From the IMG/VR virus record IMGVR_UViG_3300023284_002989: a stretch of 25,011 nucleotides of DNA; one strand, 5' to 3'. A program made the translations under genes and the position numbers. Source of the DNA: a virus. Position 1 is the stretch's first letter; every line of letters begins with the position of its first letter. Positions 3 through 18,246 of this stretch are shown piece after piece. Under the pieces are notes generated by a model. That model did not search any database. It worked only from the letters and a program-made list of their open reading frames with translations, and was not told the origin of the DNA.

Positions 3-386
3 TTGCCAACAAAGGGTCCGCTGCCACCTGGGAAGTACAAGAGCAGGGACGGGCACCTGCTCTTCGTGCAAGAGGACGGGCAGGTACACGGCGATGGGAA
101 GTGGTGGCAAAAGGAGCCTTTCAACCCGATGTGGGATTTGCTTCACCGTGGTGCCGTTTCCTTCACCCTCATTCAGCCAGTTGCTGACGAGGTTATTGAC
201 ACGGTATGGCGTAGCGAGTGTGGAGACATACTTCGGATTGTCCGTGCAGACGACAAGCACATCTCTGTCGAGTCAATCGAACTCGCAGAAGCGGAGGTGG
301 GTTACGTCCACGATCTAGACGGCACCATCCCATTCACACGCGACGTGTTGGATTGCTGGGAGCCTGTCGAGACAATGGAGCTGTGA
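3..386 (+). CDS. hypothetical protein, possibly 5'-truncated at window edge; ETMEL C-terminal tag
   Basis: The frame is open from the window edge, and TTG at 3 is only the first possible start. It ends ...CWEPVETMEL-TGA. The stop overlaps the next start (GTGA). Confidence 0.6.
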   Translation: MPTKGPLPPGKYKSRDGHLLFVQEDGQVHGDGKWWQKEPFNPMWDLLHRGAVSFTLIQPVADEVIDTVWRSECGDILRIVRADDKHISVESIELAEAEVGYVHDLDGTIPFTRDVLDCWEPVETMEL

Positions 387-685
387 CCTTCCAGGAACTC
401 AAACCCTGTCCCGGGTGTGGGAAGACTGAGGCTGTGGTTGTGGATCAGCTCGTGATCCGCAGCAAAGGTGGCAGCTTCGATTTCACTGTCCGGTGTGGGG
501 ACATTCGAATCGAACAGGTCAACGGGTGTGGGTGGATCGGCCCGACCTACACCGACCGGGAAAAGGCGATTGAAGCCTGGAACAAACGGTGGGAGTCTGG
601 GGAATTGGACCAAGAAGAACGGGATTTGCTCACGTCATACCGCAACCGTGGTCCTGCGGCTGGTGGTCCCGGACCCAGAGTCTGA
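383..685 (+). CDS. Lar-family restriction-alleviation-like zinc-ribbon protein
   Basis: GTG at 383 overlaps the upstream TGA. The translation TFQELKPCPGCGK...VRCGD...GCGWIGPTYTDREKAIEAWNKRWE matches the remembered Lar signature (LKPCPFCG ... C..CG ... EAI.AWNRR). Confidence 0.7.
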   Translation: MTFQELKPCPGCGKTEAVVVDQLVIRSKGGSFDFTVRCGDIRIEQVNGCGWIGPTYTDREKAIEAWNKRWESGELDQEERDLLTSYRNRGPAAGGPGPRV

Positions 686-900
686 TGAGTCGTGAAGCGT
701 GCACATCTTGTGGGACGGTGGTGAGCACCACTGCAGATCCGAACCCACATGAGGGGTACTTCATCTCGCTGGAGCAGGCGGAAGAATTGGATGTGGAGCA
801 ACACTACCGAGAGTTCGGGCAGTTCCCACGTGGGTGGATGGCAAAGCACGCGATTCCGGTAGTGCTGTGCGAGCCCTGTCGGCAGAGGTTGGCTCGATGA
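685..900 (+). CDS. small zinc-ribbon-like protein
   Basis: ATG at 685 overlaps the upstream stop (TGATG). CTSC and CEPC pairs in 71 aa. Confidence 0.6.
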   Translation: MSREACTSCGTVVSTTADPNPHEGYFISLEQAEELDVEQHYREFGQFPRGWMAKHAIPVVLCEPCRQRLAR

Positions 901-1133
901 AAAAGCAGGTCAAGTGCAGCGTTCCCGGGTGCCTCCAGACGGCATGGTGCCCGAAGAAGGTAATGCGTGAGGGCAAGCCTGTGTTCGGGGTGCCCAACGG
1001 GTGGTACGCGGTGGTCCAGAAACCTCTACTGGATAATACGGACATCGATGGTGACCCGATTCAGGCGACCAGCAATGTCCACTGGTATTGCCCCCAGCAT
1101 GGCAGCCACGCAACCCGCGACGCAGAGAACTGA
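897..1133 (+). CDS. small Cys/His-rich protein
   Basis: ATGA overlap with the upstream stop. Contains KCSVPGC ... WYCPQH. 78 aa. Confidence 0.6.
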   Translation: MKKQVKCSVPGCLQTAWCPKKVMREGKPVFGVPNGWYAVVQKPLLDNTDIDGDPIQATSNVHWYCPQHGSHATRDAEN

Positions 1134-1139
1134 CGCATT

Positions 1140-1427
1140 ATGTCTTGGCGAGTAACACGACCAGTGTCATTGTGGAATCCAATGGGGTATAGCGCGCGTC
1201 AGATTCACGACCTTGCCATTCAGCGTTGGATTCTGCGTACTCCAGTCGAGGAATTGGCACAGCACGTCTTCGAGGGGGTGGATCTCGACAAGCCTCCAGT
1301 TCACCTGATCATCCCACCCCCACCAGGGTTCCTGGCTGCACGTAGACTCAAGGAGCTGGAACAGACAGTGTCGAACATGCTGCCCGTGACGAAGACCCCC
1401 AGCGAGGGAATGCCTTTCAGGATGTGA
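1140..1427 (+). CDS. hypothetical protein
   Basis: ATG-initiated ORF of 95 aa in the same-strand gene train. No family recognised. Confidence 0.6.
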   Translation: MSWRVTRPVSLWNPMGYSARQIHDLAIQRWILRTPVEELAQHVFEGVDLDKPPVHLIIPPPPGFLAARRLKELEQTVSNMLPVTKTPSEGMPFRM

Positions 1428-1681
1428 TGAGCAGCCCACGAGTAATCCCCCAGCGCCAGAAGGGTCTGGCGGGTGATCCGATCTTGGCTCCGAGCTGGTA
1501 TCTCATGTCCCCGGGTCATATTCTGTTGACCTGCTTCAACGGCCACACCTATCGCCTCGATCACGAGATCACTGTGGATGGGACTGTGCAGCCGTCTGTG
1601 GACTGCCCGGAGGACGGGTGTGATTTCCACGAGTTCGTGCGTCTTGAGTGTTGGGTCACCAGGGACAGGGTGTGGAAATGA
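1427..1681 (+). CDS. hypothetical protein
   Basis: ATG at 1427 overlaps the upstream TGA (TGATG); GTG at 1424 is the alternative. 84 aa. Confidence 0.6.
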   Translation: MSSPRVIPQRQKGLAGDPILAPSWYLMSPGHILLTCFNGHTYRLDHEITVDGTVQPSVDCPEDGCDFHEFVRLECWVTRDRVWK

Positions 1682-1902
1682 AGAGACCAGCACATTGCGG
1701 CAATTGCGGCAACTGCGGGACGCTGTATGTTCGTTTTGTCTGCTCGAAGTGTGAACCGGTGGCTTGCAAGTGCTGTTTGGAGCCGGTTGAGGAACGGAGC
1801 GGTTCCGGTTTCAAATACTGGGCGCATCGCTTCATATCGAATTGCCCCTGGCTTGGGTACACACTTACCAGGGGTGAAGTGATCGAGGTCATGGAGCTGT
1901 AA
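1678..1902 (+). CDS. Cys-rich small protein with EVMEL C-terminal tag
   Basis: ATGA overlap. Contains HCGNCGNCG...CSKCEPVACKCC and ends ...TLTRGEVIEVMEL-TAA. Confidence 0.65.
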   Translation: MKRPAHCGNCGNCGTLYVRFVCSKCEPVACKCCLEPVEERSGSGFKYWAHRFISNCPWLGYTLTRGEVIEVMEL

Positions 1903-1914
1903 GGGAGATTACAA

Positions 1915-2280
1915 ATGAGTAATTGGGGAAGTGTCGAACCATTGGTCGAGAAGAACCACGTCTGCAAGGGGCTGGAGGATGAGCCCTGGTTTCGCATCAT
2001 CCAAGACGACGGGTGCTACATGCTGCTGCTGCACGTCCCAGACGACCCGAAGTATCCGGACGGGTGGCGGAACACCGATTGGATCTTCCCCGAGGCGTTT
2101 GACGAGCTGGTGAAGCTGCCCAGACCACGCGGTGCGATATATGACATCACGCGTGACGGTCCCCTGCCCGCAGGTAAGGATCACCACATCGGGTCGTTGG
2201 TTGCGCAGCGGCATGCCGACAACGAAAAAGACCGAGCTGAGATCGAGCGACGGTTGAAAGCCGAGAGCGATGGGAACTGA
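1915..2280 (+). CDS. hypothetical protein
   Basis: ATG preceded by the RBS cassette TAAGGGAGATTACAAATG. 121 aa. The stop lies inside the next gene's ATGGGAACTGA start motif. Confidence 0.65.
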   Translation: MSNWGSVEPLVEKNHVCKGLEDEPWFRIIQDDGCYMLLLHVPDDPKYPDGWRNTDWIFPEAFDELVKLPRPRGAIYDITRDGPLPAGKDHHIGSLVAQRHADNEKDRAEIERRLKAESDGN

Positions 2281-2545
2281 AACTCTGAAACCAGAGGTTG
2301 TTGACGCTGTGTGCAAGAACTACAGGGATCCAGGTGCGCCCGAATGTGCGAAGGCTCCAGATCCGAAGTACACCATGCGGTTTGATGACATCGGAAAGCC
2401 CCCGATCTACTGGTGTTCGGTGTGTGGCCCGGAGGCCAGCGCAATGGACAAGGCTCTGAATCGGGCGTTTGCCGCTGGTGGGCAGAAGTTCGTCGACAAG
2501 TTCCAGAAGGCGATGGACGACCATCCGTGTAAACATGGGAACTGA
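2270..2545 (+). CDS. MGTET-start small Cys-containing protein
   Basis: Starts ATGGGAACTGAAACT (MGTETL) with an 11-nt overlap on the upstream gene. Contains a CSVCG motif. 91 aa. Confidence 0.65.
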   Translation: MGTETLKPEVVDAVCKNYRDPGAPECAKAPDPKYTMRFDDIGKPPIYWCSVCGPEASAMDKALNRAFAAGGQKFVDKFQKAMDDHPCKHGN

Positions 2546-2750
2546 GACTGACCTACGAAAACATCCTGACGCGGTCAAGTGTGCCCATTGTGGTCGGGAG
2601 CTTGGGCATGTTGGCGGGTTCTGCCTGGGTCGGGATCTGTTGCCGATGTTCGAGCATCCAGAGGTTGTGCCCTTGAAGCCGCCCCGAATATTCTGTGGCC
2701 TGTGCGTTATCGTGCCGGGCTGGACAATACTGTTGGAGGAAATTCAATGA
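2535..2750 (+). CDS. MGTET-start zinc-ribbon-like protein
   Basis: Internal ATG at 2535 of track ORF 2469-2750, chosen because it recreates the ATGGGAACTGAGACTGA start and the 11-nt overlap. Contains KCAHCG...FCGLC. Confidence 0.6.
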   Translation: MGTETDLRKHPDAVKCAHCGRELGHVGGFCLGRDLLPMFEHPEVVPLKPPRIFCGLCVIVPGWTILLEEIQ

Positions 2751-3175
2751 ATAGTTGGTCGGATCTCGAAAAGAAGAACTTATCACCAGAGCAGATCGCA
2801 GAAGCCGAACGAGAAGCAACGGCTATCGCAGCTGAGATTGACAAGCTGTCGCGGAAACGGATTGCGGAGTCGATTGCGCATCACGAGGGGAAACTGACTG
2901 AGGCGCAGCAAGCTGGGGATGAGCTGAAGGCTGCCAGGCGAGAGGGTGCGATTTCTGCCCTGAGCTGGGTTCAGATGCTTGAGTATGAGCCTGAAGAATC
3001 ACGCAGGGGACTGGAAGAGCGTGTGTGCGACCGCGTGATGTTCGAGTGTCGACGGTCGGGTATCAGTGAAGGTAAAGAGAGGGTTCTCGTGGGGGCAGTG
3101 CGAAGTGCATTCCAGCCGGATCCCCCTGGACCTCCGAACCCTCCACTTCCTCCCCGCAGCATGCCTGTGGGCTGA
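2747..3175 (+). CDS. coiled-coil protein with Pro-rich C-terminus
   Basis: ATGA overlap at 2747. E/A/K-rich helical sequence followed by PDPPGPPNPPLPP. 142 aa. Confidence 0.6.
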   Translation: MNSWSDLEKKNLSPEQIAEAEREATAIAAEIDKLSRKRIAESIAHHEGKLTEAQQAGDELKAARREGAISALSWVQMLEYEPEESRRGLEERVCDRVMFECRRSGISEGKERVLVGAVRSAFQPDPPGPPNPPLPPRSMPVG

Positions 3176-3381
3176 TGGGAACTGAGACTGATCAGGTACT
3201 GGTGCCTGTGTCGCGGTGCGATCATTGCCATTTCATGGACAAGCGGGAGGTGGAGGGAGACCAGGAGCATTGGATTTGCATGAAGGTCCCAATCTCAGGA
3301 GACGATGAAAGCACTGCTCTGATCGGCATTCGCAAGTGGGGGGACTACCCTGCGATCCCAGACTGGTGCCCGTTTCGGTGA
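3175..3381 (+). CDS. MGTET-start Cys/His-rich small protein
   Basis: TGATG overlap. Starts ATGGGAACTGAGACTGA (MGTETD). Contains RCDHCH ... WCPF. 68 aa. Confidence 0.65.
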   Translation: MGTETDQVLVPVSRCDHCHFMDKREVEGDQEHWICMKVPISGDDESTALIGIRKWGDYPAIPDWCPFR

Positions 3382-3566
3382 CGCGGGCACAGAAATGGCA
3401 GCAGTGGATCGAGCAGTGGACCGAGCTGCATGAGTACCTGGCCTGGGTGATGAAGAGGGCTGCGTACTCGATTGAGGACAAGGATCCCAAAGAGATACGA
3501 GATCAGTGGATGGAGGAAATGCATGAGGCAGCTGCAGACTGGGATGAATTTCTGTCCCACAGGTGA
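3378..3566 (+). CDS. hypothetical W/E-rich helical protein
   Basis: GTG at 3378 overlaps the upstream TGA (GTGA); the track start at 3336 would overlap by 46 nt. 62 aa. Followed by a terminator. Confidence 0.5.
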   Translation: MTRAQKWQQWIEQWTELHEYLAWVMKRAAYSIEDKDPKEIRDQWMEEMHEAAADWDEFLSHR

Positions 3567-3624
3567 GAAAGAAATTCCCACGGATGGGAATGTTTTTCCT
3601 GTGGGTGGGACAGTTTTTCTCTTT
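3552..3624 (+). terminator. compound intrinsic terminator
   Basis: Inner hairpin ATTCCCA-cgga-TGGGAAT (3574-3591) is followed by GTTTTT. Outer stem CTGTCCCAC (3552-3560) pairs with GTGGGACAG (3605-3613) and is followed by TTTTTCTCTTT. Confidence 0.6.
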
Positions 3625-3651
3625 CGATCCCACCTGCGGGTGTGGTAAGTT
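3622..3651 (+). promoter_or_regulatory. conserved promoter cassette, copy P1
   Basis: -35 TTTCGA (3622-3627), 18-nt spacer ending GTGG, -10 TAAGTT (3646-3651). ATG at 3660, only 8 nt past the -10. Aligns with P2-P5. Confidence 0.6.
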
Positions 3652-3659
3652 CTCTCTTG

Positions 3660-3896
3660 ATGTCTGAGACTGGTAAATTGGATTCTAATGTGGTGCGTGA
3701 CTTTCCTGTGGGAGCACAACTGCGGTACAAGAAGTCACGTTTGCGAGGGAGTAACGTCCACTGTAACGTTATGCGGCATTTCCTCGATCCAAACAAAAAG
3801 CACTACGTCGAATTGCACTGGAGCACCGGGGAAAAGAATAATTGGTCGGCAGGAGGGGTTGTCAGCGATCTGCAGACAGAGACGATGGAGTTTTGA
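3660..3896 (+). CDS. PVG-family small protein #1 (ETMEF tag)
   Basis: ATG at 3660 (MSETGKL...). VVRDFPVGAQL...HCNVMRHF...ELHWSTGEKNNWSAGGVVSDLQTETMEF. Closest paralog is 6031-6264. Confidence 0.7.
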   Translation: MSETGKLDSNVVRDFPVGAQLRYKKSRLRGSNVHCNVMRHFLDPNKKHYVELHWSTGEKNNWSAGGVVSDLQTETMEF

Positions 3897-4213
3897 TGTC
3901 AGACGCAACTGTCACGAGGTTGTCCGTTACAAAGGACCGCGCCAAAGCCCTTGGGCAGTGGGTAGAGGAATTGTCACACGACCCGGTGCGGACAGAACTG
4001 TTCAAGCTGGGGTTCACCCCCTTCCAGTTCCACTACACGGCGTTCGACGGGAGCATGTTGTCTGTGTCGCCCGATTATGCCGAAGAGCCGGTCTGGCATG
4101 TGTGCTGGGACGAAAATGAGGGGGATGGGGGGATATTTGTCCGAGTACACACCGACGAGTTGGTGGATTTCCTTGCGGTGCGCATCAAGGAAATGGAGTC
4201 GTCGAGGAAGTGA
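3896..4213 (+). CDS. hypothetical protein
   Basis: ATG at 3896 overlaps the upstream TGA (TGATG). 105 aa. No family recognised. Confidence 0.6.
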   Translation: MSDATVTRLSVTKDRAKALGQWVEELSHDPVRTELFKLGFTPFQFHYTAFDGSMLSVSPDYAEEPVWHVCWDENEGDGGIFVRVHTDELVDFLAVRIKEMESSRK

Positions 4214-4392
4214 AATGGAAGGTCCGCGTATGGTGCAACGACTGTGGTTTCGGGCAGGACCCCATGGGCTGCTTCGAGGGGGGTAGTGAGGTGCTGGACG
4301 AGGTGTTCGAGACTGTGGAGGTGGCAGAGGACGCCGGGAGCGACTACTGCAAGTGTTCCACGTGGGATTTCGAGCTTTTGGAGGAACAGTGA
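4210..4392 (+). CDS. small acidic Cys-containing protein
   Basis: GTG overlaps the upstream TGA (GTGA). Contains WCNDCG ... YCKCS. 60 aa. Confidence 0.55.
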   Translation: MKWKVRVWCNDCGFGQDPMGCFEGGSEVLDEVFETVEVAEDAGSDYCKCSTWDFELLEEQ

Positions 4393-4667
4393 AGCACCTG
4401 TCAGGTTGCAAATGGTACGCTGCGGCAGCATGCCCTGTAGCGGTGTCGTGTGATGCGCACGGGCACGATGTCTGCCCGGAGTGCGATCCCTGCATCTGCA
4501 GTGGGAAAGCATTCCTCGTGCGTGTCTGCAACACGTGCAGCAAGGAAGTCTTGCCCGTTGAAGAATGTGACGGTCGGGTGTTCTACGAACACATTTCGCC
4601 TTCACCAAAGTGTTGGATCGAATTGGTCAATGACGACACCACGTTTGTTGAGACGATGGACCTGTGA
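4389..4667 (+). CDS. Cys-rich small protein with ETMDL C-terminal tag
   Basis: GTG at 4389 overlaps the upstream TGA. At least 12 Cys (CPECDPCICS, CNTCS). Ends ...TTFVETMDL-TGA. Confidence 0.6.
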   Translation: MKHLSGCKWYAAAACPVAVSCDAHGHDVCPECDPCICSGKAFLVRVCNTCSKEVLPVEECDGRVFYEHISPSPKCWIELVNDDTTFVETMDL

Positions 4668-4951
4668 GGGTCAAACCCATACCGATGAGGACGCAGGAGC
4701 AAGCTCAACAGGGCTGCTATCGCAAGAGCGGGTACGCCTCTCTGGAATCGGCAAGGGTTGCTGCATCGCACAAGAGTGGAACCAGTTACGCCTACCGGTG
4801 TGGGCTGTGTGGGGACTGGCATCTGACTTCACAGCGTCCCAGCAAGGGCAAGATCGTCAGATCCAGGAGGCGCAGGAAAAGTAAGCAAGACCACAGTCTG
4901 CGGCAGTCGCTTGGTGACTCTTTGCGTAGTTTGACTAGTGACACCAAGTGA
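4664..4951 (+). CDS. small basic protein with CxxC-WHLT motif
   Basis: GTG overlaps the upstream TGA. Contains AYRCGLCGDWHLTSQ followed by a K/R-rich tail. 95 aa. Confidence 0.6.
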   Translation: MRVKPIPMRTQEQAQQGCYRKSGYASLESARVAASHKSGTSYAYRCGLCGDWHLTSQRPSKGKIVRSRRRRKSKQDHSLRQSLGDSLRSLTSDTK

Positions 4952-4970
4952 CTGGCAGTAGAGTCCCATA

Positions 4971-5225
4971 ATGAAACGTCGATCCATTCTCGGTGCTGCC
5001 CTTGCGGCGATTGCGCTTCCATTCCAGAAGCTGTTCAGGCGTAAGCCACGTGACATTGTGTTTCCTGTCATTCGCAACGCAGATTACGGAATGTCGATGG
5101 ACGAGATCATGCGGGATGTGCATTTCGATATGCAGCACATCTACGATTGGAAAGCGCGCCAAACAACCGACAAGGACAAGCTGTTAGACGACAAAGATGC
5201 GGTGTGCACGGTCTTCAAGGTCTGA
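4971..5225 (+). CDS. small exported protein, twin-arginine-like signal
   Basis: N-terminus MKRRSILGAALAAIALP (RR plus a hydrophobic h-region). 84 aa. Confidence 0.65.
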   Translation: MKRRSILGAALAAIALPFQKLFRRKPRDIVFPVIRNADYGMSMDEIMRDVHFDMQHIYDWKARQTTDKDKLLDDKDAVCTVFKV

Positions 5226-5354
5226 TACAGTGGGGCCAATCCGGTGAGGTTCTGCCTCGATTGCCTTGCCGGGGTTGTCTACAGGGTGAGGTGACTCTGA
5301 GACGACACAGGTTGTGCTTCCAGACGTGGAAGGCAATCCTGTGATTACAATCCA

Positions 5355-5397
5355 CAGGGTCCCTCTACCAATTCCAAGAGGGACCCTGTTTTCTCTT
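5355..5397 (+). terminator. rho-independent terminator
   Basis: Perfect 12-bp stem CAGGGTCCCTCT (5355-5366) / AGAGGGACCCTG (5377-5388) with a 10-nt loop, followed by TTTTCTCTT. Confidence 0.8.
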
Positions 5398-5425
5398 GCG
5401 GACACATTTGCGGAGGTGGTAGGTT
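5396..5425 (+). promoter_or_regulatory. conserved promoter cassette, copy P2
   Basis: -35 TTGCGG, 18-nt spacer ending GTGG, -10 TAGGTT (5420-5425). ATG at 5432, only 6 nt past the -10 (leaderless geometry). Confidence 0.65.
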
Positions 5426-5431
5426 GTGGCG

Positions 5432-6013
5432 ATGGGAAATGAAATTGGAAGACGCGCTGTTCTAAAAGGGGCTACGTTGGGTGCTGCCGCTATCGCTGCA
5501 GCACCTGCAATTGCTGCAGAGCAAGAAAACCCCTACCGCCTCAAAGTCACGAAGAAAGACGGCAAGACCCACATCTCCGGATTGCTGATCCGGCGTGGGG
5601 AGGTGTGGCCCAACGGTGATGTCATCTCACCCGAGTGCGAGATCGATACCTCCGGGTTGGTTGCGCGTGGATGGGCACATTTGGGAAGGCGTGCTGTATC
5701 CGGGCAGATTGTCGGGGAGCCGATTGCCTGTGTCGAAGATACAAACCCACCAGGCGATGTTCGGCTGACGTGTCTCCTGTACAGCGGTGTTCCTGCTGGC
5801 GAGGCGTTGCTCGCTCTGTACGATGCGGGCGAGCCGATTGTCTACGGGCCTATCGGTACCATCACGGGTGCTCACTGTGACGGGGTAGGGTACGCTGTCC
5901 GAGACAGCATTCGCGTCAACAGCGTCCAGTTCCTTTCCCACCTGGGAAGTCGTGCTGCACCCACCCGGTTGCACAAGATTGCCATCCCACGGCGGTGGCC
6001 GGATTGGTTCTGA
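5432..6013 (+). CDS. exported protein, twin-arginine-like signal
   Basis: ATG at 5432 (the track GTG at 5426 lies inside the promoter). MGNEIGRRAVLKGATLGAAAIAAAPAIAAE. 193 aa. Confidence 0.7.
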   Translation: MGNEIGRRAVLKGATLGAAAIAAAPAIAAEQENPYRLKVTKKDGKTHISGLLIRRGEVWPNGDVISPECEIDTSGLVARGWAHLGRRAVSGQIVGEPIACVEDTNPPGDVRLTCLLYSGVPAGEALLALYDAGEPIVYGPIGTITGAHCDGVGYAVRDSIRVNSVQFLSHLGSRAAPTRLHKIAIPRRWPDWF

Positions 6014-6030
6014 TCGAGCCTGGGGTAATT

Positions 6031-6264
6031 GTGGGAACTAAGACTGGGAAATTGAATCTCGATATCGTGCGTGACTACCCGGTAGGGGCGCGGTTAGGCA
6101 AGGAGTCAGGTATTGGTAAAGGGCTGCACTGCAATGTACTGCGGCATTTTATCAGTAGCTACGGTACTCACGAGATCGAGTTGCAGTGGAGCAACGGAGA
6201 CAAGAACAGTTGGACTGCGGTGGGGGTTGCCAAAGATCTGCAGGCAGAGACGCTGGAGTTCTGA
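6031..6264 (+). CDS. PVG-family small protein #2 (ETLEF tag)
   Basis: GTG at 6031 was chosen by analogy with paralog 3660 (GTKTGKL vs SETGKL); the track start is 5995. IVRDYPVGARL...HCNVLRHF...LQWSNGDKNSWTAVGVAKDLQAETLEF. Confidence 0.65.
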   Translation: MGTKTGKLNLDIVRDYPVGARLGKESGIGKGLHCNVLRHFISSYGTHEIELQWSNGDKNSWTAVGVAKDLQAETLEF

Positions 6265-6407
6265 TGCACTACTGCAAGCTGTGTTTCCAACTCGTCTATC
6301 GGCTTCCCGCCGTGTTCATGACGTACAAGCACCCCAGAGGATCAACCTGTCAGTGGGCAACGCACACTCTCACGAATGCTGAGATCACCGAAGCGATGGA
6401 GTTCTGA
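6264..6407 (+). CDS. 47-aa Cys protein with EAMEF C-terminal tag
   Basis: ATG at 6264 overlaps the upstream TGA (TGATG). MHYCKLC...STCQWATHTLTNAEITEAMEF. The C-terminal 19 aa align with 1678-1902. Confidence 0.55.
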   Translation: MHYCKLCFQLVYRLPAVFMTYKHPRGSTCQWATHTLTNAEITEAMEF

Positions 6408-6409
6408 GA

Positions 6410-6751
6410 ATGAAAAGACGCACTGTGATAAAAGCTGGAGCCGTTGTGGGGGCAGCATTTGTTCTCCCGCAGCAAAAGAAGAAACTTCAGCCCGAGATTG
6501 CGGTGTCCGAGGGTTGGGCTCCCATGCTGCCAATCGATTTCGAGCGGATGAAGAAGGATCGCGGGCAGCATCTTCTCGATTGCGGCCCCGAGATTGCGAA
6601 GCTCACGTCCTTGCGCCGGACGCTGTCTCTCAAGGGCGACAAGCAGGTGGTGGAGATTCGGGCTCGCAAGCATTCCCGTTTCACAATCCTCTGGCCAAAG
6701 GCGCGACCGATCCACTTCATCAAGACGACTGTCAAAATCGAGTGGGTATAA
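6410..6751 (+). CDS. small exported protein, twin-arginine-like signal
   Basis: MKRRTVIKAGAVVGAAFVLP. 113 aa. GGAG lies 8 nt upstream, inside the preceding gene's tag. Confidence 0.7.
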   Translation: MKRRTVIKAGAVVGAAFVLPQQKKKLQPEIAVSEGWAPMLPIDFERMKKDRGQHLLDCGPEIAKLTSLRRTLSLKGDKQVVEIRARKHSRFTILWPKARPIHFIKTTVKIEWV

Positions 6752-6760
6752 GGTAACGAA

Positions 6761-7291
6761 ATGAAACGACGATCGGTGTTGAAAGTGGTGGTGGCAGCCC
6801 CAGTGGCCGTTGCCCTCCCCGGGGTGGCGGTGGCTTCACAGCTTCCACAGACTCGTGGCTCTGGACAAGTATGGGTCTGGATGGCGGGCAGGTTTGTGCT
6901 GCACGGGCGGGAAGAGATCCGCAAGGGGATGCTGTATCTACACACGTGGGGGCACGATCTGTCCTGGGGGCAGCTGTACTGGGCGTTGCAGGATGCCCAG
7001 TGCATAACGTGTGTGTACAAATCAGCACCCCCCACGAGAGCCTGGCTTCTGACTTCGCGTCCCTTGCAGGGACGCAGCCATTCCACTCCGGTCTTCGATG
7101 TCTTGGACATCAACAGGGCTGCCTACTTCGACCGCGATGCCGAGCGGATGATGTGCTCGTGGAACCCGCAGGACAGGGACGCAATCATCGAGATGGCGCG
7201 CAACGACTTCCCGCAGCGGTACGTCAATTGCAAGTGCGGCAAGTTCATGCCCGCTGACAAAACAATGGCTTGCTGCCGCGTCCAGGTGTAG
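6761..7291 (+). CDS. exported protein, twin-arginine-like signal
   Basis: MKRRSVLKVVVAAPVAVALPGVAVA. 176 aa. C-terminal NCKCGKF...ACC. Confidence 0.7.
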   Translation: MKRRSVLKVVVAAPVAVALPGVAVASQLPQTRGSGQVWVWMAGRFVLHGREEIRKGMLYLHTWGHDLSWGQLYWALQDAQCITCVYKSAPPTRAWLLTSRPLQGRSHSTPVFDVLDINRAAYFDRDAERMMCSWNPQDRDAIIEMARNDFPQRYVNCKCGKFMPADKTMACCRVQV

Positions 7292-7295
7292 CTCG

Positions 7296-7556
7296 ATGGC
7301 AAACTCGATTGAAAACAAACTGGACCGCAGAGATATGTTGGAGGTGATGGCGACAGTCCCTGCCCTTGCTGCAGTCCCAACTTTCATGCGGAAGATGGAG
7401 ACTGCAGAGGATCAAAAGAACCTCATTCGGGAAGAAATTGTGTACGCCCGCAAAGATGGGAAGACGGTGCCTGTCAAGTACCGAGCTGTCTACAGCACGG
7501 GCATGACCCGCGAAGTTACTCTCGCCACCGCTAAGGCTGAAGATTTCCCGAGGTAG
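7296..7556 (+). CDS. small protein with degenerate twin-arginine-like N-terminus
   Basis: MANSIENKLDRRDMLEVMATVPALAAVPTF. 86 aa. Preceded by the junction TAGCTCGATGGCAA, which recurs at 7554. Confidence 0.6.
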   Translation: MANSIENKLDRRDMLEVMATVPALAAVPTFMRKMETAEDQKNLIREEIVYARKDGKTVPVKYRAVYSTGMTREVTLATAKAEDFPR

Positions 7557-7560
7557 CTCG

Positions 7561-7884
7561 ATGGCAACTGGTCAGCACGTACTCTTCGAGGAAGAGGGCA
7601 AGAAGCGGAGGAAGGTGATAGGCAGGTGGGGAGACCCGATTCCTGTGAAGCCTGGGGTAGGTAGGGGGAGCAAGCCGGTTCCTGTGAAACCCGTTGAGAT
7701 CACTGTCGGGTCGATCTGGGAAGGGATGGATTCTGGAAGGCATGTCAAGATTTTGTCCTGCGAGGATAAGCGGGTGATGGTGCAGTGCATCAAAAATACT
7801 CGCAATTTGCACTTCACCAACGTTGGGACTACCTGGGAAGAGTTCTCTTTGAACTTCAATACCGTCTACAGACGTATCGAGTAG
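7561..7884 (+). CDS. GQHVLFEE-family protein #1
   Basis: MATGQHVLFEEEGKK...SIWEG...GRHVKILSC...VMVQC...GTTWEEF. Paralog of 10235-10489. Carries an internal PIPVKPG/PVPVKPV duplication. Confidence 0.65.
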   Translation: MATGQHVLFEEEGKKRRKVIGRWGDPIPVKPGVGRGSKPVPVKPVEITVGSIWEGMDSGRHVKILSCEDKRVMVQCIKNTRNLHFTNVGTTWEEFSLNFNTVYRRIE

Positions 7885-7895
7885 GAGATTACGAA

Positions 7896-8135: not shown

Positions 8136-8139
8136 GTCC

Positions 8140-15651: not shown

Positions 15652-15875
15652 TGGAGGTTGTCAGGCTTCCGGAGGGCTGGGAGTTCTGTACACCGGAGCA
15701 GGCTCTGTTCCAGCTTCCCAACGGTAATTGGCAGTCGTTTTACTGGTTGCAGGATTCAATTCACACGATGGGCTATATGGAAAGCAAGGACAACGCGCTG
15801 ATGCTCGCCAGAGCGAAGGACAGAGGATTGCCCTTGCGGCGCAGGCGCGGAGCAGAAATTGTGCAGGTAGGATGA
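15651..15875 (+). CDS. hypothetical protein
   Basis: TGATG overlap. 74 aa. No family recognised. Confidence 0.6.
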   Translation: MEVVRLPEGWEFCTPEQALFQLPNGNWQSFYWLQDSIHTMGYMESKDNALMLARAKDRGLPLRRRRGAEIVQVG

Positions 15876-16084
15876 TGCCTAAAAAGTTGGAAAAGTGTCC
15901 CTGTTGCAAGGGCAGCGGAATACGCCCTGAACACCATTCTATTTTGGAGCCGTGTTCCGATCCTGAATCCCACAAGTTGTCGGAGGAAGAGATACAGGAA
16001 GCGATACGAAAGGGGGAGGAAGATTTTCGGAGAGCGTCTTCTGTTCACCCAGCGTTGCGATTGTCTGGAATCTTCTACAAATAA
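15872..16084 (+). CDS. small protein with a DnaJ-type CxxCxGxG motif
   Basis: ATGA overlap at 15872. MMPKKLEKCPCCKGSG... 70 aa. Confidence 0.55.
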   Translation: MMPKKLEKCPCCKGSGIRPEHHSILEPCSDPESHKLSEEEIQEAIRKGEEDFRRASSVHPALRLSGIFYK

Positions 16085-16087
16085 GTG

Positions 16088-16348
16088 ATGACTGAGACTG
16101 ATAAATCGCTGGGCAAGTACATGTTCAGCAGACTCTGGCCTGTGTTGGGCAGAAAGACGCAGCGTTGGGCCATCTACTCGAAGAGTTCTGGCACGGTTCT
16201 CGGAGTAGCCCAATGGTTTGGACGCTGGAGGCAATACTGTTTCGAACCTGCACAGAGCACGATTTTCAACCAGGGCTGTCTCGATGAAATAGCTGGATTC
16301 CTGCGGAACGCCAATGCGGAACACCGTGCAAAGAGGAACGCGGCATGA
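16088..16348 (+). CDS. MTETD-start hypothetical protein
   Basis: ATGACTGAGACTGATAAA start; GTG 16085 is the alternative. 86 aa. W/R-rich (VAQWFGRWRQYCFEP). Confidence 0.6.
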   Translation: MTETDKSLGKYMFSRLWPVLGRKTQRWAIYSKSSGTVLGVAQWFGRWRQYCFEPAQSTIFNQGCLDEIAGFLRNANAEHRAKRNAA

Positions 16349-16539
16349 AAGATGGCGTGATCGGCAAAGTTCCCTGCCCTATCTGTTCTGGAGTGGGTAA
16401 GGAATGCGGAATGTGTGGGGGATTGGGCAGCATGCACAAGATCAAGATCCCCCCTCAACCCGGGTGTCGCAAGTGTGAGAAAGGGCAGTGCACGATGCAC
16501 CCGACATGGGAGTACCAACAGATCGAACAAGAGGCGTGA
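16345..16539 (+). CDS. DnaJ-zinc-finger-like small protein (repeated CxxCxGxG)
   Basis: ATGA overlap. Contains CPICSGVG, CGMCGGLG and CRKCEKGQC. 64 aa. Confidence 0.6.
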   Translation: MKDGVIGKVPCPICSGVGKECGMCGGLGSMHKIKIPPQPGCRKCEKGQCTMHPTWEYQQIEQEA

Positions 16540-16802
16540 TGGACGAGAAGAAACAAGCAGCGTTGAAGGAAAAGCCCAAGAAAGGTGACATTCTTGGTGT
16601 GCATATCAATGCTGTAGGCAGTGGACGCAAAAATGGCAAGACTGTTGTCATTGCATGGGGAGCGTACAAATCCGGGTTTGGTGAACTCACAATCATCACG
16701 GATGCAGAAGGCGATACAAAGATTCGGACAGAGACGATGGGCAAGGACTTTGCCAAGCGGGTGCTCAACAAGCTGATCGACGATGCGGAGGTCACGGAAT
16801 GA
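16539..16802 (+). CDS. hypothetical protein
   Basis: ATG at 16539 (TGATG overlap) in track ORF 16488-16802. Contains an internal copy of the tag-like nucleotide motif GAGACGATGG (16731-16740, ...RTETMGK...). Confidence 0.6.
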   Translation: MDEKKQAALKEKPKKGDILGVHINAVGSGRKNGKTVVIAWGAYKSGFGELTIITDAEGDTKIRTETMGKDFAKRVLNKLIDDAEVTE

Positions 16803-17104
16803 TCACTGCGGCGATGGTGGTGTACGCATTCATCGCGGGGTTTGCAATCAGAGCTATGAAGCCGTTTCCGGATGCATGGACAGATCCTGACTATGGCGAC
16901 GGGGACATAAGTGATGCGTCCCTGTCGATTTTCTTTGGGCTGGTGTGGCCAGTGACAGGACTGGGCTATTGTCTCTGGTGTTTGCACAAGAGTTGGAAGA
17001 ACAGCGTTGGTAAGTGGCATGCGGCTGAAAAGGAAAACGTACGACTCAAGAAGCGTGTCGAACAACTGGAGACGGGACTTTTGAAGGGTGAGGGAATCGA
17101 GTGA
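16799..17104 (+). CDS. membrane protein (2 predicted TM) with coiled-coil tail
   Basis: ATGA overlap. Hydrophobic stretches MITAAMVVYAFIAGFAI and LSIFFGLVWPVTGLGYCLWCL, then ENVRLKKRVEQLETGLL. Confidence 0.6.
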   Translation: MITAAMVVYAFIAGFAIRAMKPFPDAWTDPDYGDGDISDASLSIFFGLVWPVTGLGYCLWCLHKSWKNSVGKWHAAEKENVRLKKRVEQLETGLLKGEGIE

Positions 17105-17313
17105 AGTACGGTAAGTTCAGCAAAGATCCGTGGAGGGCGATGCCACCGTTTGCAACGCAAGAGCAGGCGTTTCTGTATGCTCTGAAGAGCTTCAAGGAGA
17201 TCGGATACGGGCGCATGATGCAGCTCATTCAGGGGGAATGGGCACGCATGCTCATGGACAGTGGCATGGATGAAGAGACAGCACGTAGGGGTGCGAAAAT
17301 CGACGTGACCTGA
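17101..17313 (+). CDS. hypothetical protein
   Basis: GTGA overlap. 70 aa. Confidence 0.55.
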   Translation: MKYGKFSKDPWRAMPPFATQEQAFLYALKSFKEIGYGRMMQLIQGEWARMLMDSGMDEETARRGAKIDVT

Positions 17314-17669
17314 TGAGTGACATTCACACATTCGTTGTGACGGCGAACAAGGATCGCACCGAGATTGGCATGGGTGGGCCTGATTTGCCGCAGATGTACA
17401 AGAGCGTTGATGACGAGGACATGGAGCTGATCGCCACATTCACTGCGGCTGAGAAGGATGCCAGGAGGATCTTCGACTCTCTGCGAGATACCCTGCGTGA
17501 TGAGATGTATCCAGCTGACGACGATCTTCTCCGCAAGTACGGACATCACGCCAAGGATTGCAAGATTGAAGCAAGCAGGTTTACCAACTCTTTCAAGGAC
17601 AAATACCACCAGCGCCCTCTGGGGCCAGAGTGCACCTGCGGTTGGGACAAGATCAAAGAGGCACTTTGA
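17313..17669 (+). CDS. hypothetical protein
   Basis: TGATG overlap. 118 aa. Its C-terminal KIEASRFTNSFKDKYH is repeated in the next gene. Confidence 0.6.
   Translation: MSDIHTFVVTANKDRTEIGMGGPDLPQMYKSVDDEDMELIATFTAAEKDARRIFDSLRDTLRDEMYPADDDLLRKYGHHAKDCKIEASRFTNSFKDKYHQRPLGPECTCGWDKIKEAL
17562..17609 (+). repeat. 48-nt direct repeat, copy 1 (KIEASRFTNSFKDKYH)
   Basis: 39 of 48 nt identical to 17759-17806 by hand alignment. Both copies are in frame in adjacent genes. Confidence 0.7.
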
Positions 17670-18028
17670 TGGCATACACGACCTTTCCTGCGGATCGGGT
17701 CTCTGGGTTGGCAGAGACCATCAACGAGATCACAGACAGCATCAGCGGCATTGATGAGAAGATCGAAGCGAGCAAGTTCACCAATCCTTTCAAAGACAAA
17801 TATCATTGGGGTGTTTACGAGAACTGGCCTGTGGGGTCTGTTTGCCGCCTGTTGTGGGCAAGCAAATTGTCGGAAGTTGCCAGGAGATGTGAAATCTTCG
17901 AGCACCGTCTTCTCGTACACAGTGGGCACGTTGTCGGGATCAAATGGGAAGACAATGGACAGGCAGAATGGTGGACTGCTGCCAAGGTGCACGCTGTGCT
18001 GGCAACACCAGAGGTGATGGAACTGTGA
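17669..18028 (+). CDS. PVG-family protein #5, N-terminally extended (EVMEL tag)
   Basis: ATG at 17669 (TGATG overlap). YENWPVGSVCRL...IKWEDNGQAEWWTAAKVHAVLATPEVMEL. Confidence 0.6.
   Translation: MAYTTFPADRVSGLAETINEITDSISGIDEKIEASKFTNPFKDKYHWGVYENWPVGSVCRLLWASKLSEVARRCEIFEHRLLVHSGHVVGIKWEDNGQAEWWTAAKVHAVLATPEVMEL
17759..17806 (+). repeat. 48-nt direct repeat, copy 2 (KIEASKFTNPFKDKYH)
   Basis: See 17562-17609. Confidence 0.7.
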
Positions 18029-18246
18029 TGCCGAAGCAGGAGGAATACCCAATTGGCAATGTGTGTCCGGTACTTGATCGTTGGGGTAGTCTGCGAACAC
18101 ATGTTCCTTTGCAGTGCTACGGAGATGTTTCGAAGAAGATGGAGCAACTGTCCAGCACGATCTCTGTGTGGATGAAGGTGTGCCAGAACTGTGGAGGTGT
18201 GTACGCCGAGACGTTTGACCAGGGGCGCGAAACAATGGATTTATAA
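18028..18246 (+). CDS. small Cys protein with ETMDL C-terminal tag
   Basis: ATG at 18028 (TGATG overlap) in track ORF 17944-18246. Contains CQNCGG. Ends ...DQGRETMDL-TAA; the codons GAA ACA ATG GAT TTA contain no GGAG. Confidence 0.6.
   Translation: MPKQEEYPIGNVCPVLDRWGSLRTHVPLQCYGDVSKKMEQLSSTISVWMKVCQNCGGVYAETFDQGRETMDL

What the first reader, a model, noticed from the sequence alone, without database searches (positions are those of the whole stretch)
369..18246. Thirteen otherwise dissimilar small proteins share the C-terminal pentapeptide [ED]-[TVIA]-[ML]-[ED]-[LF]-stop
Seen: the ORFs ending at the coordinates below all terminate in this motif.
- 386 (VETMEL)
- 1902 (IEVMEL)
- 3896 (TETMEF)
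- 4667 (VETMDL)
- 6264 (AETLEF)
- 6407 (TEAMEF)
- 8618 (HEIMEL)
- 9531 (TETMEF)
- 9920 (YEVMEF)
- 10707 (PETMEL)
- 15651 (TDTLEF)
- 18028 (PEVMEL)
- 18246 (RETMDL)

Degenerate variants occur at 23982 (PVMCDL) and 22931 (SQDL). The protein bodies include the PVG family, several unrelated-looking Cys-rich mini-proteins and non-Cys proteins.

The consensus DNA, GAGACGATGGAG(C/T)T(G/C)TGA, embeds GGAG 5-8 nt before a coupled downstream start. A Shine-Dalgarno / reinitiation role is therefore one explanation.

Four copies have lost GGAG while keeping the peptide, through synonymous or conservative codons:
- ATGGAACTG at 8618;
- ATGGAACTG at 18028;
- ATGGACCTG at 4667;
- GAAACAATGGATTTATAA at 18246.

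In addition, the GTGA-type junctions leave only 2 nt between GGAG and the start codon. Both points argue for selection on the peptide itself.

Inference: this is a shared C-terminal tag, for example a class-II-PDZ-like phi-x-phi-COOH ligand, a protease/adaptor degron, or a targeting/packaging signal.
Basis: partly seen in the sequence, partly recalled or inferred. Interest (0 to 1): 0.85.

Follow-up and report, generated by a model that had tools for sequence, protein, structure and literature searches.

The report
Shared C-terminal peptide tag on phage miniproteins
About one in six of the small genes on this uncultivated phage-like DNA fragment end in the same five amino acids (Glu-Thr-Met-Glu-Leu/Phe), and the pattern of sequence change shows it is kept for the peptide rather than for the DNA, which points to a common docking or targeting tail whose partner is still unknown.

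Summary
All 13 ORFs end in [ED][TVIA][ML][ED][LF]-stop at the stated coordinates. These are the only 13 matches in all six frames. About 0.004 are expected at 75 C-termini and 0.4 internally; none is internal.

The conserved block is 15 nt plus the stop, with sharp edges and strict three-base periodicity. The four least conserved positions are all third codon positions. Synonymous codons vary roughly as in the rest of the genome. There is no shared RNA fold.

One fragment from another metagenome keeps ...AMDL-stop with no GGAG and no adjacent downstream start. Selection therefore acts on the peptide. GGAG probably also serves as a Shine-Dalgarno site, but only in the Phe-type junction GGAGTTCTGATG.

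The proteins are not one family. Six are "PVG" paralogs, predicted to be SH3/Tudor-like barrels with the tail outside the fold. Two or three are Cys-rich paralogs. At least four have no detectable relatives among the others.

The best reading is a C-terminal short linear motif that docks unrelated small phage proteins onto one partner, as the T4 clamp-binding tails do. The partner and function are not shown. Relatives are almost absent from public data.

The parts
369..386 (+). Motif copy ETMEL-TGA ending ORF 3-386. The downstream Lar-family gene starts at the overlapping GTG at 383.
1885..1902 (+). Motif copy EVMEL-TAA ending the Cys-rich ORF 1678-1902. The next start is 12 nt downstream and has its own GGGAG SD.
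3879..3896 (+). Motif copy ETMEF-TGA ending PVG paralog 3657-3896, with a TGATG junction.
4650..4667 (+). Motif copy ETMDL-TGA (GGAC, no GGAG) ending the Cys-rich ORF 4353-4667, with a GTGA junction.
6247..6264 (+). Motif copy ETLEF-TGA ending PVG paralog 5995-6264, with a TGATG junction.
6390..6407 (+). Motif copy EAMEF-TGA ending the 47-aa Cys-rich ORF 6264-6407. The next start is 2 nt downstream (twin-arginine-like protein).
8601..8618 (+). Motif copy EIMEL-TGA (GGAA) ending ORF 8313-8618, with a GTGA junction.
9514..9531 (+). Motif copy ETMEF-TGA ending ORF 9280-9531, with a TGATG junction.
9903..9920 (+). Motif copy EVMEF-TGA ending ORF 9531-9920 (129 aa, no Cys cluster), with a TGATG junction.
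10690..10707 (+). Motif copy ETMEL-TGA ending PVG paralog 10486-10707. The next ATG is 1 nt downstream.
15634..15651 (+). Motif copy DTLEF-TGA ending PVG paralog 15421-15651, with a TGATG junction.
18011..18028 (+). Motif copy EVMEL-TGA (GGAA) ending PVG-domain fusion protein 17666-18028, with a TGATG junction.
18229..18246 (+). Motif copy ETMDL-TAA (GGAT) ending the probable PVG-like ORF 18028-18246. It has no overlapping downstream start.
23965..23982 (+). Degenerate copy PVMCDL-TGA ending the divergent PVG paralog 23743-23982.
22914..22931 (+). Weak variant ...SQDL-TGA ending the 25-aa ORF 22854-22931. Only the last two residues fit the motif.

Best explanation
The pentapeptide [ED]-[TVAI]-[ML]-[ED]-[LF]-COOH is a C-terminal short linear motif kept by selection on the amino-acid sequence. 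It sits on at least six sequence-unrelated groups of small ORFan proteins, on what is probably a fragment of a large uncultivated phage.

Its pattern is two hydrophobic residues at positions 0 and -2 between acidic residues, always with a free carboxyl end, and in the one reliable model outside the folded domain. That is the pattern of a tail that inserts as an added strand or anchor into a pocket of one common partner. The most likely mechanism is therefore that the tail brings many different small phage proteins to the same hub or reader. This is the way the interchangeable hydrophobic-acidic tails of T4 gp33, gp55 and gp43 bring them to the gp45 clamp.

Shown: the motif is real, is locked to the terminus, and is under peptide-level selection. 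Inferred: it acts in trans as a docking or targeting tail. The partner is unknown.

A secondary layer exists. In the Phe-type junction (GGAGTTCTGATG) the Met-Glu codons also supply a correctly spaced Shine-Dalgarno sequence for the next gene.
For: - Frequency: 13 of 13 six-frame matches are terminal. 0.004 terminal and 0.42 internal matches are expected; 13 and 0 are observed.
- Sharp edges: information is maximal at codon positions 1-2 of the five codons and falls to background just upstream and just downstream. Mean pairwise nucleotide identity is 69% in the block, 31% in the preceding 30 nt and 29% in the following 12 nt.
- Periodicity: the four least conserved of the 15 positions are all third codon positions. 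The chance of that is 5/1365 = 0.004.
- Synonymous codons are close to genome usage: GAG 9 of 12 and 9 of 11 against 58%, TTC 5 of 6 against 72%.
- Within the PVG family, codon identity at same-residue columns is 46% in the tail and 39% in the body, so there is no extra nucleotide-level constraint.
- Not one family. BLASTP with tails trimmed links only the PVG members and the pair 1678/6264. hhalign of 4353, 9531, 6264 and 3-386 against the PVG profile aligns at most the last few residues (1-12 columns, probability below 2%).
- The AlphaFold2 model of PVG protein 3657-3893 has mean pLDDT 86.8 and is a small SH3/Tudor-like barrel. The last regular element ends at residue 74, and ETMEF (residues 75-79) is coil in a lower-confidence block.
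- Independence from coupling. L007, the counterpart of 17666-18028 from another metagenome, ends ATC GCG ATG GAT TTG TGA (IAMDL). It has no GGAG. No downstream gene is called on the remaining 80 nt, and no start overlaps or abuts the stop; the overlapping GTG opens only a 9-codon ORF, and the nearest ATGs are 5 nt (out of frame) and 51 nt downstream. The stretch contains a TTGACA. Window copies 1902 and 18246 also lack an adjacent start.
- A distant PVG homolog from a third metagenome (L008) ends DDTMEF.
- The three TGATG junctions without the motif (3175, 8776, 17313) have no usable SD, so coupling here does not need GGAG.
- No common RNA fold (z-scores -0.6 to +1.7) and no Rfam family apart from the tRNA.
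- Control fragments of related huge phages (MVP 46-47% identical) show no recurrent terminal peptide.
- Precedent: T4 C-terminal clamp-binding epitopes are short, hydrophobic and acidic, sit on unrelated proteins, and can be interchanged freely (PMC2988020).
Against: - No partner was identified. Only 25 kb of the genome exists, and no PDZ, TPR or clamp gene was recognised in the window proteins scanned against Pfam (20 proteins).
- Comparative depth is tiny: three fragments of 542-793 nt. In the one informative counterpart the tail (PEVMEL against PIAMDL, 3 of 6 identical) does not look better conserved than the rest of the protein (by eye; body identity was not computed).
- Modest codon excesses leave room for shared descent or some nucleotide-level pressure: ACG 6 of 8 Thr against 32%, and CTG 6 of 7 Leu against 41%.
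- A Trp sits exactly 17 residues from the end in the PVG proteins and in three of seven non-PVG proteins (p about 5e-4). This hints that part of the sharing is a longer homologous C-terminal module.
- Structural evidence that the tail is exposed rests on one model. The second model failed (pLDDT 38).
Confidence: 0.5

Rival explanations
1. Translation-initiation or coupling element. The block is an RNA signal (Shine-Dalgarno GGAG plus an overlapping stop/start) for the downstream gene, and the shared peptide is only its by-product.
For: - Nine of 13 copies overlap the next start (TGATG or GTGA), and two more lie 1-2 nt from it.
- In the Phe-type junction GGAG lies 5 nt before the ATG, with a binding energy typical for this genome (-5.9 kcal/mol). 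Codon -2 is GAG in 6 of 6 copies against 3 of 7 in the Leu-type (Fisher p about 0.05).
- GGAGTTCTGATG is the most repeated 12-mer in the window.
Against: - Third codon positions are the free ones, including the last G of GGAG, which carries 0.65 bit.
- Four copies lack GGAG.
- In GTGA junctions GGAG is only 2 nt from the start.
- An SD does not explain Phe/Leu at -1, Met/Leu at -3, Thr/Val at -4 or Glu at -5.
- The motif persists with no adjacent start (1902, 18246, L007).
- The three non-motif TGATG junctions lack an SD.
- There is no shared RNA fold.
Confidence: 0.1
2. Shared descent or mosaicism without a common function. The tail is the remnant of one ancestral 3' gene end, spread by duplication and by recombination at gene boundaries in a hyperplastic region. 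It is retained as an ordinary structural end of each protein.
For: - Six of 13 are PVG paralogs and two are a second family.
- A Trp lies exactly 17 residues from the end in the PVG proteins and in 1902, 4667 and 6407.
- Mosaicism is visible. The N-terminal part of 17666-18028 is 54% identical to the C-terminal part of 17313-17669, and L004 carries an extra small gene between conserved flanks.
- Gene starts also carry a repeated module, ATGGGAACTGAGACT.
- ACG and CTG are moderately over-used in the motif.
Against: - Similarity stops abruptly at codon -5, and the preceding 30 nt are at background identity of 31%.
- At least four proteins (3-386, 8313, 9280, 9531) show nothing beyond the tail by BLASTP. 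hhalign was run only for 3-386, 4353, 6264 and 9531, and found nothing beyond the tail.
- Five residues would not survive such divergence of the rest of the protein without selection on them.
- In the PVG model the tail is not part of the barrel.
- There are zero internal copies.
Confidence: 0.2
3. Cis-acting nascent peptide. While still in the ribosome, the last residues (with the Trp about 17 residues back, in the exit tunnel) slow RF2-dependent termination at UGA. That would tune re-initiation on the next gene or transcription polarity, in the manner of TnaC or SecM.
For: - The motif always abuts the stop codon, which is TGA in 11 of 13 copies.
- Selection is at the peptide level.
- Most copies are tightly coupled to a downstream gene.
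- A conserved Trp lies at -17/-18 in 9 of 13 proteins, a distance comparable to the 17-residue SecM arrest motif (my own knowledge).
Against: - TGA is also the stop of 84% of all genes here.
- Four proteins lack the Trp at that distance.
- Three copies have no coupled downstream gene.
- Known termination-stalling tails end in Pro, not Glu-Leu/Phe (my own knowledge).
- There is no direct evidence.
Confidence: 0.07
4. C-terminal degron. The tail marks a cohort of early small proteins for timed destruction by a host or phage protease or adaptor.
For: - Terminal position with a free carboxylate and a hydrophobic last residue.
- The carriers are small ORFan proteins next to a Lar anti-restriction gene, a plausible early or host-takeover region.
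Against: - Known bacterial C-degrons (ssrA ...LAA, nonpolar Tsp/Prc substrates) have apolar, not acidic, penultimate residues (my own knowledge).
- No protease gene was recognised in the window proteins scanned.
- This is a special case of the docking model and cannot be separated from it here.
Confidence: 0.08

Closest known systems
C-terminal sliding-clamp-binding tails of phage T4 gp33, gp55 and gp43 (and the RB69 polymerase C-terminal 11-mer)
   Same: A short hydrophobic-plus-acidic segment at the extreme C-terminus of otherwise unrelated phage proteins, joined to the body by a non-conserved linker, and interchangeable between proteins. All dock on one hub (PMC2988020). The RB69 tail ...DMFDF has the same acid-x-hydrophobic-acid-Phe-COOH pattern as ETMEF (sequence recalled from my own knowledge).
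   Different: T4 has three or four carriers; this contig has 13 in 25 kb. No clamp gene is known for this element. The carriers are ORFan miniproteins rather than replication or transcription factors. The binding was not tested.
Class II PDZ ligands (hydrophobic-x-hydrophobic-COOH) and bacterial PDZ readers (DegS/DegP, Tsp/Prc)
   Same: Hydrophobic residues at positions 0 and -2 and an obligatory free C-terminus.
   Different: Known bacterial PDZ readers are periplasmic, and DegS prefers Tyr-x-Phe. The carriers here have no signal peptides. No PDZ protein was found in the window.
Chemoreceptor C-terminal pentapeptide NWETF/xWxxF, which tethers CheR and CheB
   Same: A conserved bacterial C-terminal pentapeptide ending in acid-polar-Phe that serves purely as a docking site (PMC7698151).
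   Different: The defining Trp at -4 (position -3 counting the last residue as 0) is absent (Thr/Val/Ile/Ala here). That motif sits on one protein family (MCPs), not on unrelated proteins.
SSB C-terminal tip (DDDIPF) and the acidic, Phe-terminated tails of T7 gp2.5 and gp4
   Same: An acidic tail ending in an aromatic or hydrophobic residue, used by more than one protein to reach the same binding pocket (my own knowledge).
   Different: Those tails are long acidic stretches on DNA-replication proteins. Here the motif is a discrete five-residue block with Met/Leu at -3 (position -2 counting the last residue as 0).
Shine-Dalgarno and overlapping stop/start coupling junctions (ATGA, TGATG)
   Same: The Phe-type copy places GGAG 5 nt before an ATG that overlaps the TGA.
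   Different: Conservation is codon-periodic and extends to residues an SD cannot explain. The motif occurs without GGAG and without a start.

Membership tests
Shine-Dalgarno / translational coupling element | A purine-rich anti-SD complement placed about 4-10 nt before a start codon | tested here: inconclusive
   Met in 8 copies: six Phe-type (spacing 5-8 nt) and Leu-type 10707 (spacing 7) carry GGAG; 18028 (spacing 5) has only GGAA. Not met in 386, 4667 and 8618 (spacing 2), in 1902 (own SD) or in 18246 (no start).
Shine-Dalgarno / translational coupling element | Conservation at the nucleotide level, independent of the reading frame of the upstream gene | tested here: not met
   The information profile is strictly 3-periodic. 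The last G of GGAG carries 0.65 bit, and 4 of 13 copies lack GGAG.
Shine-Dalgarno / translational coupling element | Present only where a downstream start follows | tested here: not met
   Window copies 1902 and 18246 lack an adjacent start. In L007 no start overlaps or abuts the stop and no downstream gene is called on the remaining 80 nt.
Single paralogous protein family with a conserved last strand | Detectable homology outside the last five residues among all carriers | tested here: not met
   BLASTP with tails trimmed groups 6 PVG proteins and 2 Cys-rich proteins only. hhalign of four others against the PVG profile aligns only the tail, with probability below 2%. A shared Trp at -17 leaves remote partial homology open for 3 more.
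Single paralogous protein family with a conserved last strand | The tail is an integral secondary-structure element of the fold | tested here: inconclusive
   In the PVG model the last strand ends at residue 74 and residues 75-79 are coil, within a final block of mean pLDDT 76. Only one model is usable; the 9531 model failed.
Class II PDZ ligand | Hydrophobic residues at positions 0 and -2 with a free carboxylate | tested here: met
   Leu/Phe at position 0 and Met/Leu at -2 in 13 of 13 copies, all terminal.
Class II PDZ ligand | Binding to a PDZ domain | not testable with these tools
   No PDZ protein was recognised in the window proteins scanned (20 proteins). The host and the rest of the genome are unknown.
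T4-type clamp-binding C-terminal tail | [quoted passage not shown] | tested here: met
   Sequence pattern and distribution over at least 6 unrelated groups. Definition taken from PMC2988020.
T4-type clamp-binding C-terminal tail | A cognate sliding clamp, and binding to it | not testable with these tools
   No clamp gene on the 25-kb contig. No complex prediction was available.
Bacterial beta-clamp-binding motif QL[SD]LF / QLxLxL | Gln at the first position and adjacent or i,i+2 hydrophobic residues in register | tested here: not met
   No Gln at the corresponding position in any copy, and position -4 (counting the last residue as 0) is Glu/Asp. The consensus is from my own knowledge.
Chemoreceptor NWETF pentapeptide | Trp at -4 and Phe at the C-terminus | tested here: not met
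   Position -4 (fourth residue from the end) is Thr/Val/Ile/Ala, and 7 of 13 copies end in Leu.
ssrA-like / nonpolar C-terminal degron | An apolar last two to three residues (e.g. LAA) | tested here: not met
   The penultimate residue is Glu/Asp in 13 of 13 copies. The degron definition is from my own knowledge.
Nascent-chain termination or arrest peptide (TnaC/SecM type) | Ribosome pausing at the stop codon that depends on the nascent peptide sequence | not testable with these tools
   Only circumstantial: the motif abuts the stop, and a Trp lies 17-18 residues back in 9 of 13 proteins.

The most novel reading that the evidence does not exclude
A large uncultivated phage uses a dedicated address system. 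A five-residue C-terminal tag (ETME-L/F) on roughly a sixth of its small early proteins delivers them to one reader. That would be a virus-encoded, motif-based sorting or assembly network not described for any phage.
Probability: 0.15. Interest if true: 0.85.

Novelty: new variant of a known kind. Interest (0 to 1): 0.62.

Why it matters
Most genes of large phages are small ORFans with no handle for experiment. A shared terminal tag gives such a handle. A single peptide could be used as bait to pull out the common partner, and it defines a cohort of about 13 proteins that probably act on, or are sorted to, the same target.

If the docking reading is right, it extends a principle known from a few replication and transcription proteins (T4 clamp tails, SSB tips) to a whole class of accessory proteins. 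It would also suggest searching other viral genomes for lineage-specific terminal motifs.

The case is also a clean worked example of dual coding at gene junctions. A peptide constraint dictates which stop/start overlap is possible: a Phe codon allows only TGATG, and Leu CTG allows GTGA.

Tried and rejected
1. Finding relatives gave almost nothing.
- Exact motif DNA in viral contigs: 0 hits.
- The MVP protein as query in viral and metagenome contigs: no relatives.
- Motif DNA in metagenome contigs gave two single, unrelated chance hits, L005 and L006.
- Motif DNA in genome contigs: 0 hits.
- The window is a whole 25,011-bp JGI contig, and its nearest MVP relatives are 47% identical.
- Their contigs L001-L003 lack the motif.

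2. Protein searches.
- A PVG-profile search of 5.8 billion proteins found only one outside protein, P0126/L004. It is about 90% identical at the DNA level and has an identical tail, so it is uninformative on synonymous change.
- A concatenated query of 12 motif proteins returned nothing, not even the window's own proteins.
- The exhaustive HMMER search added only P0130 and P0131.
- Cluster look-up found no near-identical variants.

3. Annotation and structure.
- Pfam and PHROGs gave no annotation for any motif protein.
- Foldseek of the PVG model gave only generic SH3/Tudor-like barrels, all with E above 0.09.
- The single-sequence AlphaFold2 model of 9531-9917 is unusable (pLDDT 38).

4. Ideas considered and rejected.
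- Stop-codon reassignment: the downstream genes are in other frames.
- RF2-like programmed frameshifting: the last codon is not slippery, except TTT in one copy, and the SD-like element abuts the P-site codon.
- A restriction-site or strand-biased DNA word: the GAGAC(G) strand bias is explained by Glu-Thr codons on a one-strand gene array. Other frequent 8-mers are codon-usage artefacts with unrelated flanks.
- A conserved RNA hairpin.

5. Literature word searches for the peptides themselves found nothing relevant.

Full report
**What the window is.** The window is an entire 25,011-bp metagenomic contig from JGI. About 75 short genes lie head to tail on the + strand. Most have 4-nt (ATGA/GTGA) or 1-nt (TGATG) stop/start overlaps.

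Recognisable genes are few:
- an 899-aa major-vault-protein homolog at 11240-13939 (Pfam MVP_shoulder 1.7e-27). Its only GenBank phage matches are three 462-735 kb 'uncultured phage' records at 34-35% identity;
- a Lar restriction-alleviation protein at 383-685;
- one tRNA.

The contig is probably a fragment of a large phage. None of the motif proteins matches Pfam or PHROGs.

**Check of the observation.** All 13 ORFs end as stated, with the stated codons. The pattern [ED][TVIA][ML][ED][LF] occurs 13 times in the six-frame translation. Every occurrence is on the + strand and directly followed by a stop. From the amino-acid composition of the roughly 7,600 codons, 0.004 matches are expected at 75 C-termini and 0.42 inside proteins. 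The observed numbers are 13 and 0. The carriers all have positive codon-usage scores and fit the gene tiling. Control fragments from the nearest available relatives (L001-L003, MVP 46-47% identical) have no such motif and no other recurrent terminal peptide.

**Peptide or nucleotide?** Several independent lines point to the peptide.

- *Shape of the conserved block.* Aligned on the stop codon, the 13 copies form a block of exactly five codons plus the stop.
  - Mean pairwise identity is 69% in the block. It is 31% in the preceding 30 nt and 29% in the 12 nt after the stop.
  - Within the block, information is high at codon positions 1 and 2 and low at position 3 (0.86, 0.45, 0.65 and 0.39 bit). 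The only exception is the obligatory G of ATG/CTG.
  - The four least conserved positions are all third positions, which has probability 5/1365 = 0.004.
- *Synonymous codons.* Their usage is close to the genome's. Glu is GAG in 9 of 12 and 9 of 11 copies against 58% genome-wide. Phe is TTC in 5 of 6 against 72%. There are moderate excesses of ACG (6 of 8 Thr against 32%) and CTG (6 of 7 Leu against 41%).
- *Tail against body in the PVG paralogs.* Columns with the same residue use the same codon in 46% of pairs in the tail and 39% in the body. The tail therefore evolves like ordinary coding sequence under amino-acid constraint.
- *Persistence without coupling.*
  - The fragment L007 is the counterpart of 17666-18028 from a different metagenome. 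It ends ...CCA CCC ATC GCG ATG GAT TTG TGA (PPIAMDL). It has no GGAG.
  - No downstream gene is called on the remaining 80 nt, and no start overlaps or abuts the stop. The overlapping GTG opens only a 9-codon ORF, and the nearest ATGs are 5 nt (out of frame) and 51 nt downstream. The stretch contains a TTGACA.
  - In the window, 1902 is followed by a 12-nt spacer with its own GGGAG, and 18246 has no overlapping start.
- *No RNA element.* Six junctions fold differently, with z-scores from -0.6 to +1.7, and Rfam finds nothing.

**Role of GGAG.** This genome does use SD sequences. Typical cases are GGAG, GAGG or AGGAG ending 5-8 nt before the start, at -6 to -10 kcal/mol.
- In the Phe-type junction GGAGTTCTGATG, GGAG is 5 nt from the ATG. 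Codon -2 is GAG in all six window copies (and in L008).
- In the Leu-type copies it is GAG 3, GAA 2, GAC 1 and GAT 1 (Fisher p about 0.05).
- This suggests a second, local constraint where the codons happen to serve as the SD.
- It cannot be the primary cause. The three TGATG junctions without the motif have no usable SD (-0.6 to -3.5 kcal/mol). In GTGA junctions GGAG is 2 nt from the start. An SD also says nothing about residues -1, -3, -4 and -5.

The association between Phe and TGATG, and between Leu (CTG) and GTGA, follows from the code. A TTY codon cannot supply the first base of an ATGA or GTGA overlap. So the peptide appears to dictate the junction type, not the reverse.

**One family or several?**
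- *PVG family.* Six carriers (ending at 3896, 6264, 10707, 15651, 18028 and, more weakly, 18246) plus the degenerate 23982 form the PVG family.
- *Cys-rich group.* The proteins ending at 1902 and 6407 are related (E = 0.008), and 4667 may belong with them.
- *Singletons.* The ORFs 3-386, 8313-8618, 9280-9531 and 9531-9920 match nothing once the tail is removed.
- *Profile check.* hhalign of four non-PVG carriers against the PVG profile aligns at most the last few residues (1-12 columns), with probability below 2%.
- *PVG model.* The AlphaFold2 model of a PVG protein has pLDDT 86.8 and is a small SH3/Tudor-like barrel with only generic structural neighbours. Its last strand ends at residue 74, and the pentapeptide is coil in a lower-confidence terminal block.
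- *A caveat.* A Trp lies exactly 17 residues from the end in the PVG proteins and also in 1902, 4667 and 6407. That is three of seven non-PVG carriers, with p about 5e-4. For these proteins the shared C-terminal module may be longer, and remote partial homology or an old 3'-end exchange cannot be excluded.
- *Mosaicism.* Exchange of gene parts does occur here.

**Internal calibrators.** Two other shared gene-end motifs in the same contig behave differently.
- The twin-arginine-like N-termini MKRR[ST][VI]LKG (4971, 6410, 6761, 10709) use varied Arg/Lys codons, as expected for a peptide signal.
- The N-terminal M-G/E-T-E-T motif uses ACT for all 12 Thr codons (22% genome-wide). It includes three near-identical 15-nt copies of ATGGGAACTGAGACT, so it looks nucleotide-conserved.
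- The C-terminal motif behaves like the first, not the second.

**Mechanism.** Three things are shown: a terminus-locked pentapeptide, peptide-level selection, and presence on unrelated small proteins. The rest is inferred.

The tail alternates acid, small/beta-branched, hydrophobic, acid and hydrophobic-COOH residues. This places Met/Leu and Leu/Phe on one face of an extended strand next to the free carboxylate. That is the geometry used by PDZ-type and clamp-type pockets.

The closest documented precedent in phages is T4. [quoted passage not shown] The chemoreceptor NWETF pentapeptide is a bacterial analogue (PMC7698151).

I therefore favour a trans-acting docking or targeting tail, with confidence 0.5. 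A degron is a special case of this. The rivals are shared descent without a common function (0.2), a pure coupling element (0.1) and a cis-acting nascent peptide (0.07). The partner is unknown. Candidates worth testing are the co-expanded PVG barrels, the MVP homolog and host hubs.

**Novelty and limits.** No paper in the searched library mentions these peptides. The kind of feature, a C-terminal docking motif shared by unrelated proteins, is known. Its scale here (13 carriers, 17% of the genes on the contig) and its carriers (ORFan miniproteins) are not, so I rate it a new variant of a known kind.

The evidence base is one contig and three sub-kilobase fragments. The functional claim remains an inference.

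Noticed in passing
window 11240-13939 (+): An 899-aa major vault protein homolog (Pfam MVP_shoulder 1.7e-27, Vault_3). The nearest relatives are 46-47% identical and lie on long contigs of unidirectional small genes (huge-phage-like) or in Myxococcota MAGs. GenBank phage hits are only three 462-735 kb 'uncultured phage' records. A preprint reports the first viral MVPs (10.1101/2023.11.10.566534).
   Followed up: partly
window 2270, 2535, 3175, 7896, 8140, 3657/3660, 16085/16088 (+): A second shared gene-end motif. Otherwise dissimilar proteins start M-G/E-T-E-T (ATGGGAACTGAGACT). All 12 Thr codons are ACT (22% genome-wide), so it looks conserved at the nucleotide level, unlike the C-terminal motif. 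At 2270 and 2535 the upstream genes end ...DGN*/...HGN* because their stop lies inside ATGGGAACTGA (an 11-nt overlap). L008's downstream gene also starts ATGGAAACTG.
   Followed up: partly
window 4971, 5426, 6410, 6761, 10709 (and possibly 7296) (+): Five or six small proteins begin with a twin-arginine-like signal (MKRR[ST][VI]LKG...A-rich). Codons vary between copies. A cluster of apparently Tat-exported small proteins is unusual on a phage-like element.
   Followed up: no
window 383-685 (+): A Lar-family restriction-alleviation protein (Pfam PF14354, 5.6e-09). Its only plausible start is the GTG that overlaps the TGA of the ETMEL gene.
   Followed up: partly
window 17313-17669 and 17666-18028 (+); L007: A mosaic gene. 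Residues 30-64 of 17666-18028 are 54% identical to residues 82-111 of the preceding gene, fused to a PVG domain. The fusion is also present in the L007 counterpart, so it is old.
   Followed up: partly
window 3566-3657 versus L004 322-459: The close relative L004 (about 90% nucleotide identity) carries an extra 45-aa gene between conserved flanks where the window has only a spacer. This is a single-gene indel in a hyperplastic region.
   Followed up: no
window: the position 17-18 residues before the stops at 3896, 6264, 15651, 10707, 18028, 6407, 4667 and 1902: A Trp at a fixed distance (17, sometimes 18 residues) from the C-terminus, both in PVG proteins and in three Cys-rich non-PVG proteins (p about 5e-4 for the latter).
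   Followed up: partly
window 7561-7884 and 10235-10489 (+): Another small paralog pair (30% identity, E = 1e-14) with N-termini M(A/G..)TGQHVLFEE. Neither protein carries the C-terminal motif.
   Followed up: no
window 22723-22797 (+): A tRNA-Ile with the unusual anticodon AAT (ARAGORN; Rfam tRNA 48.7 bits). It lies in the only long stretch without called + strand genes (about 22195-22927).
   Followed up: no
window 11176-11214 (+): TTGACCTG occurs twice, 31 nt apart, in the 60-nt spacer upstream of the MVP gene. This is one of the few intergenic regions and may hold a promoter.
   Followed up: no
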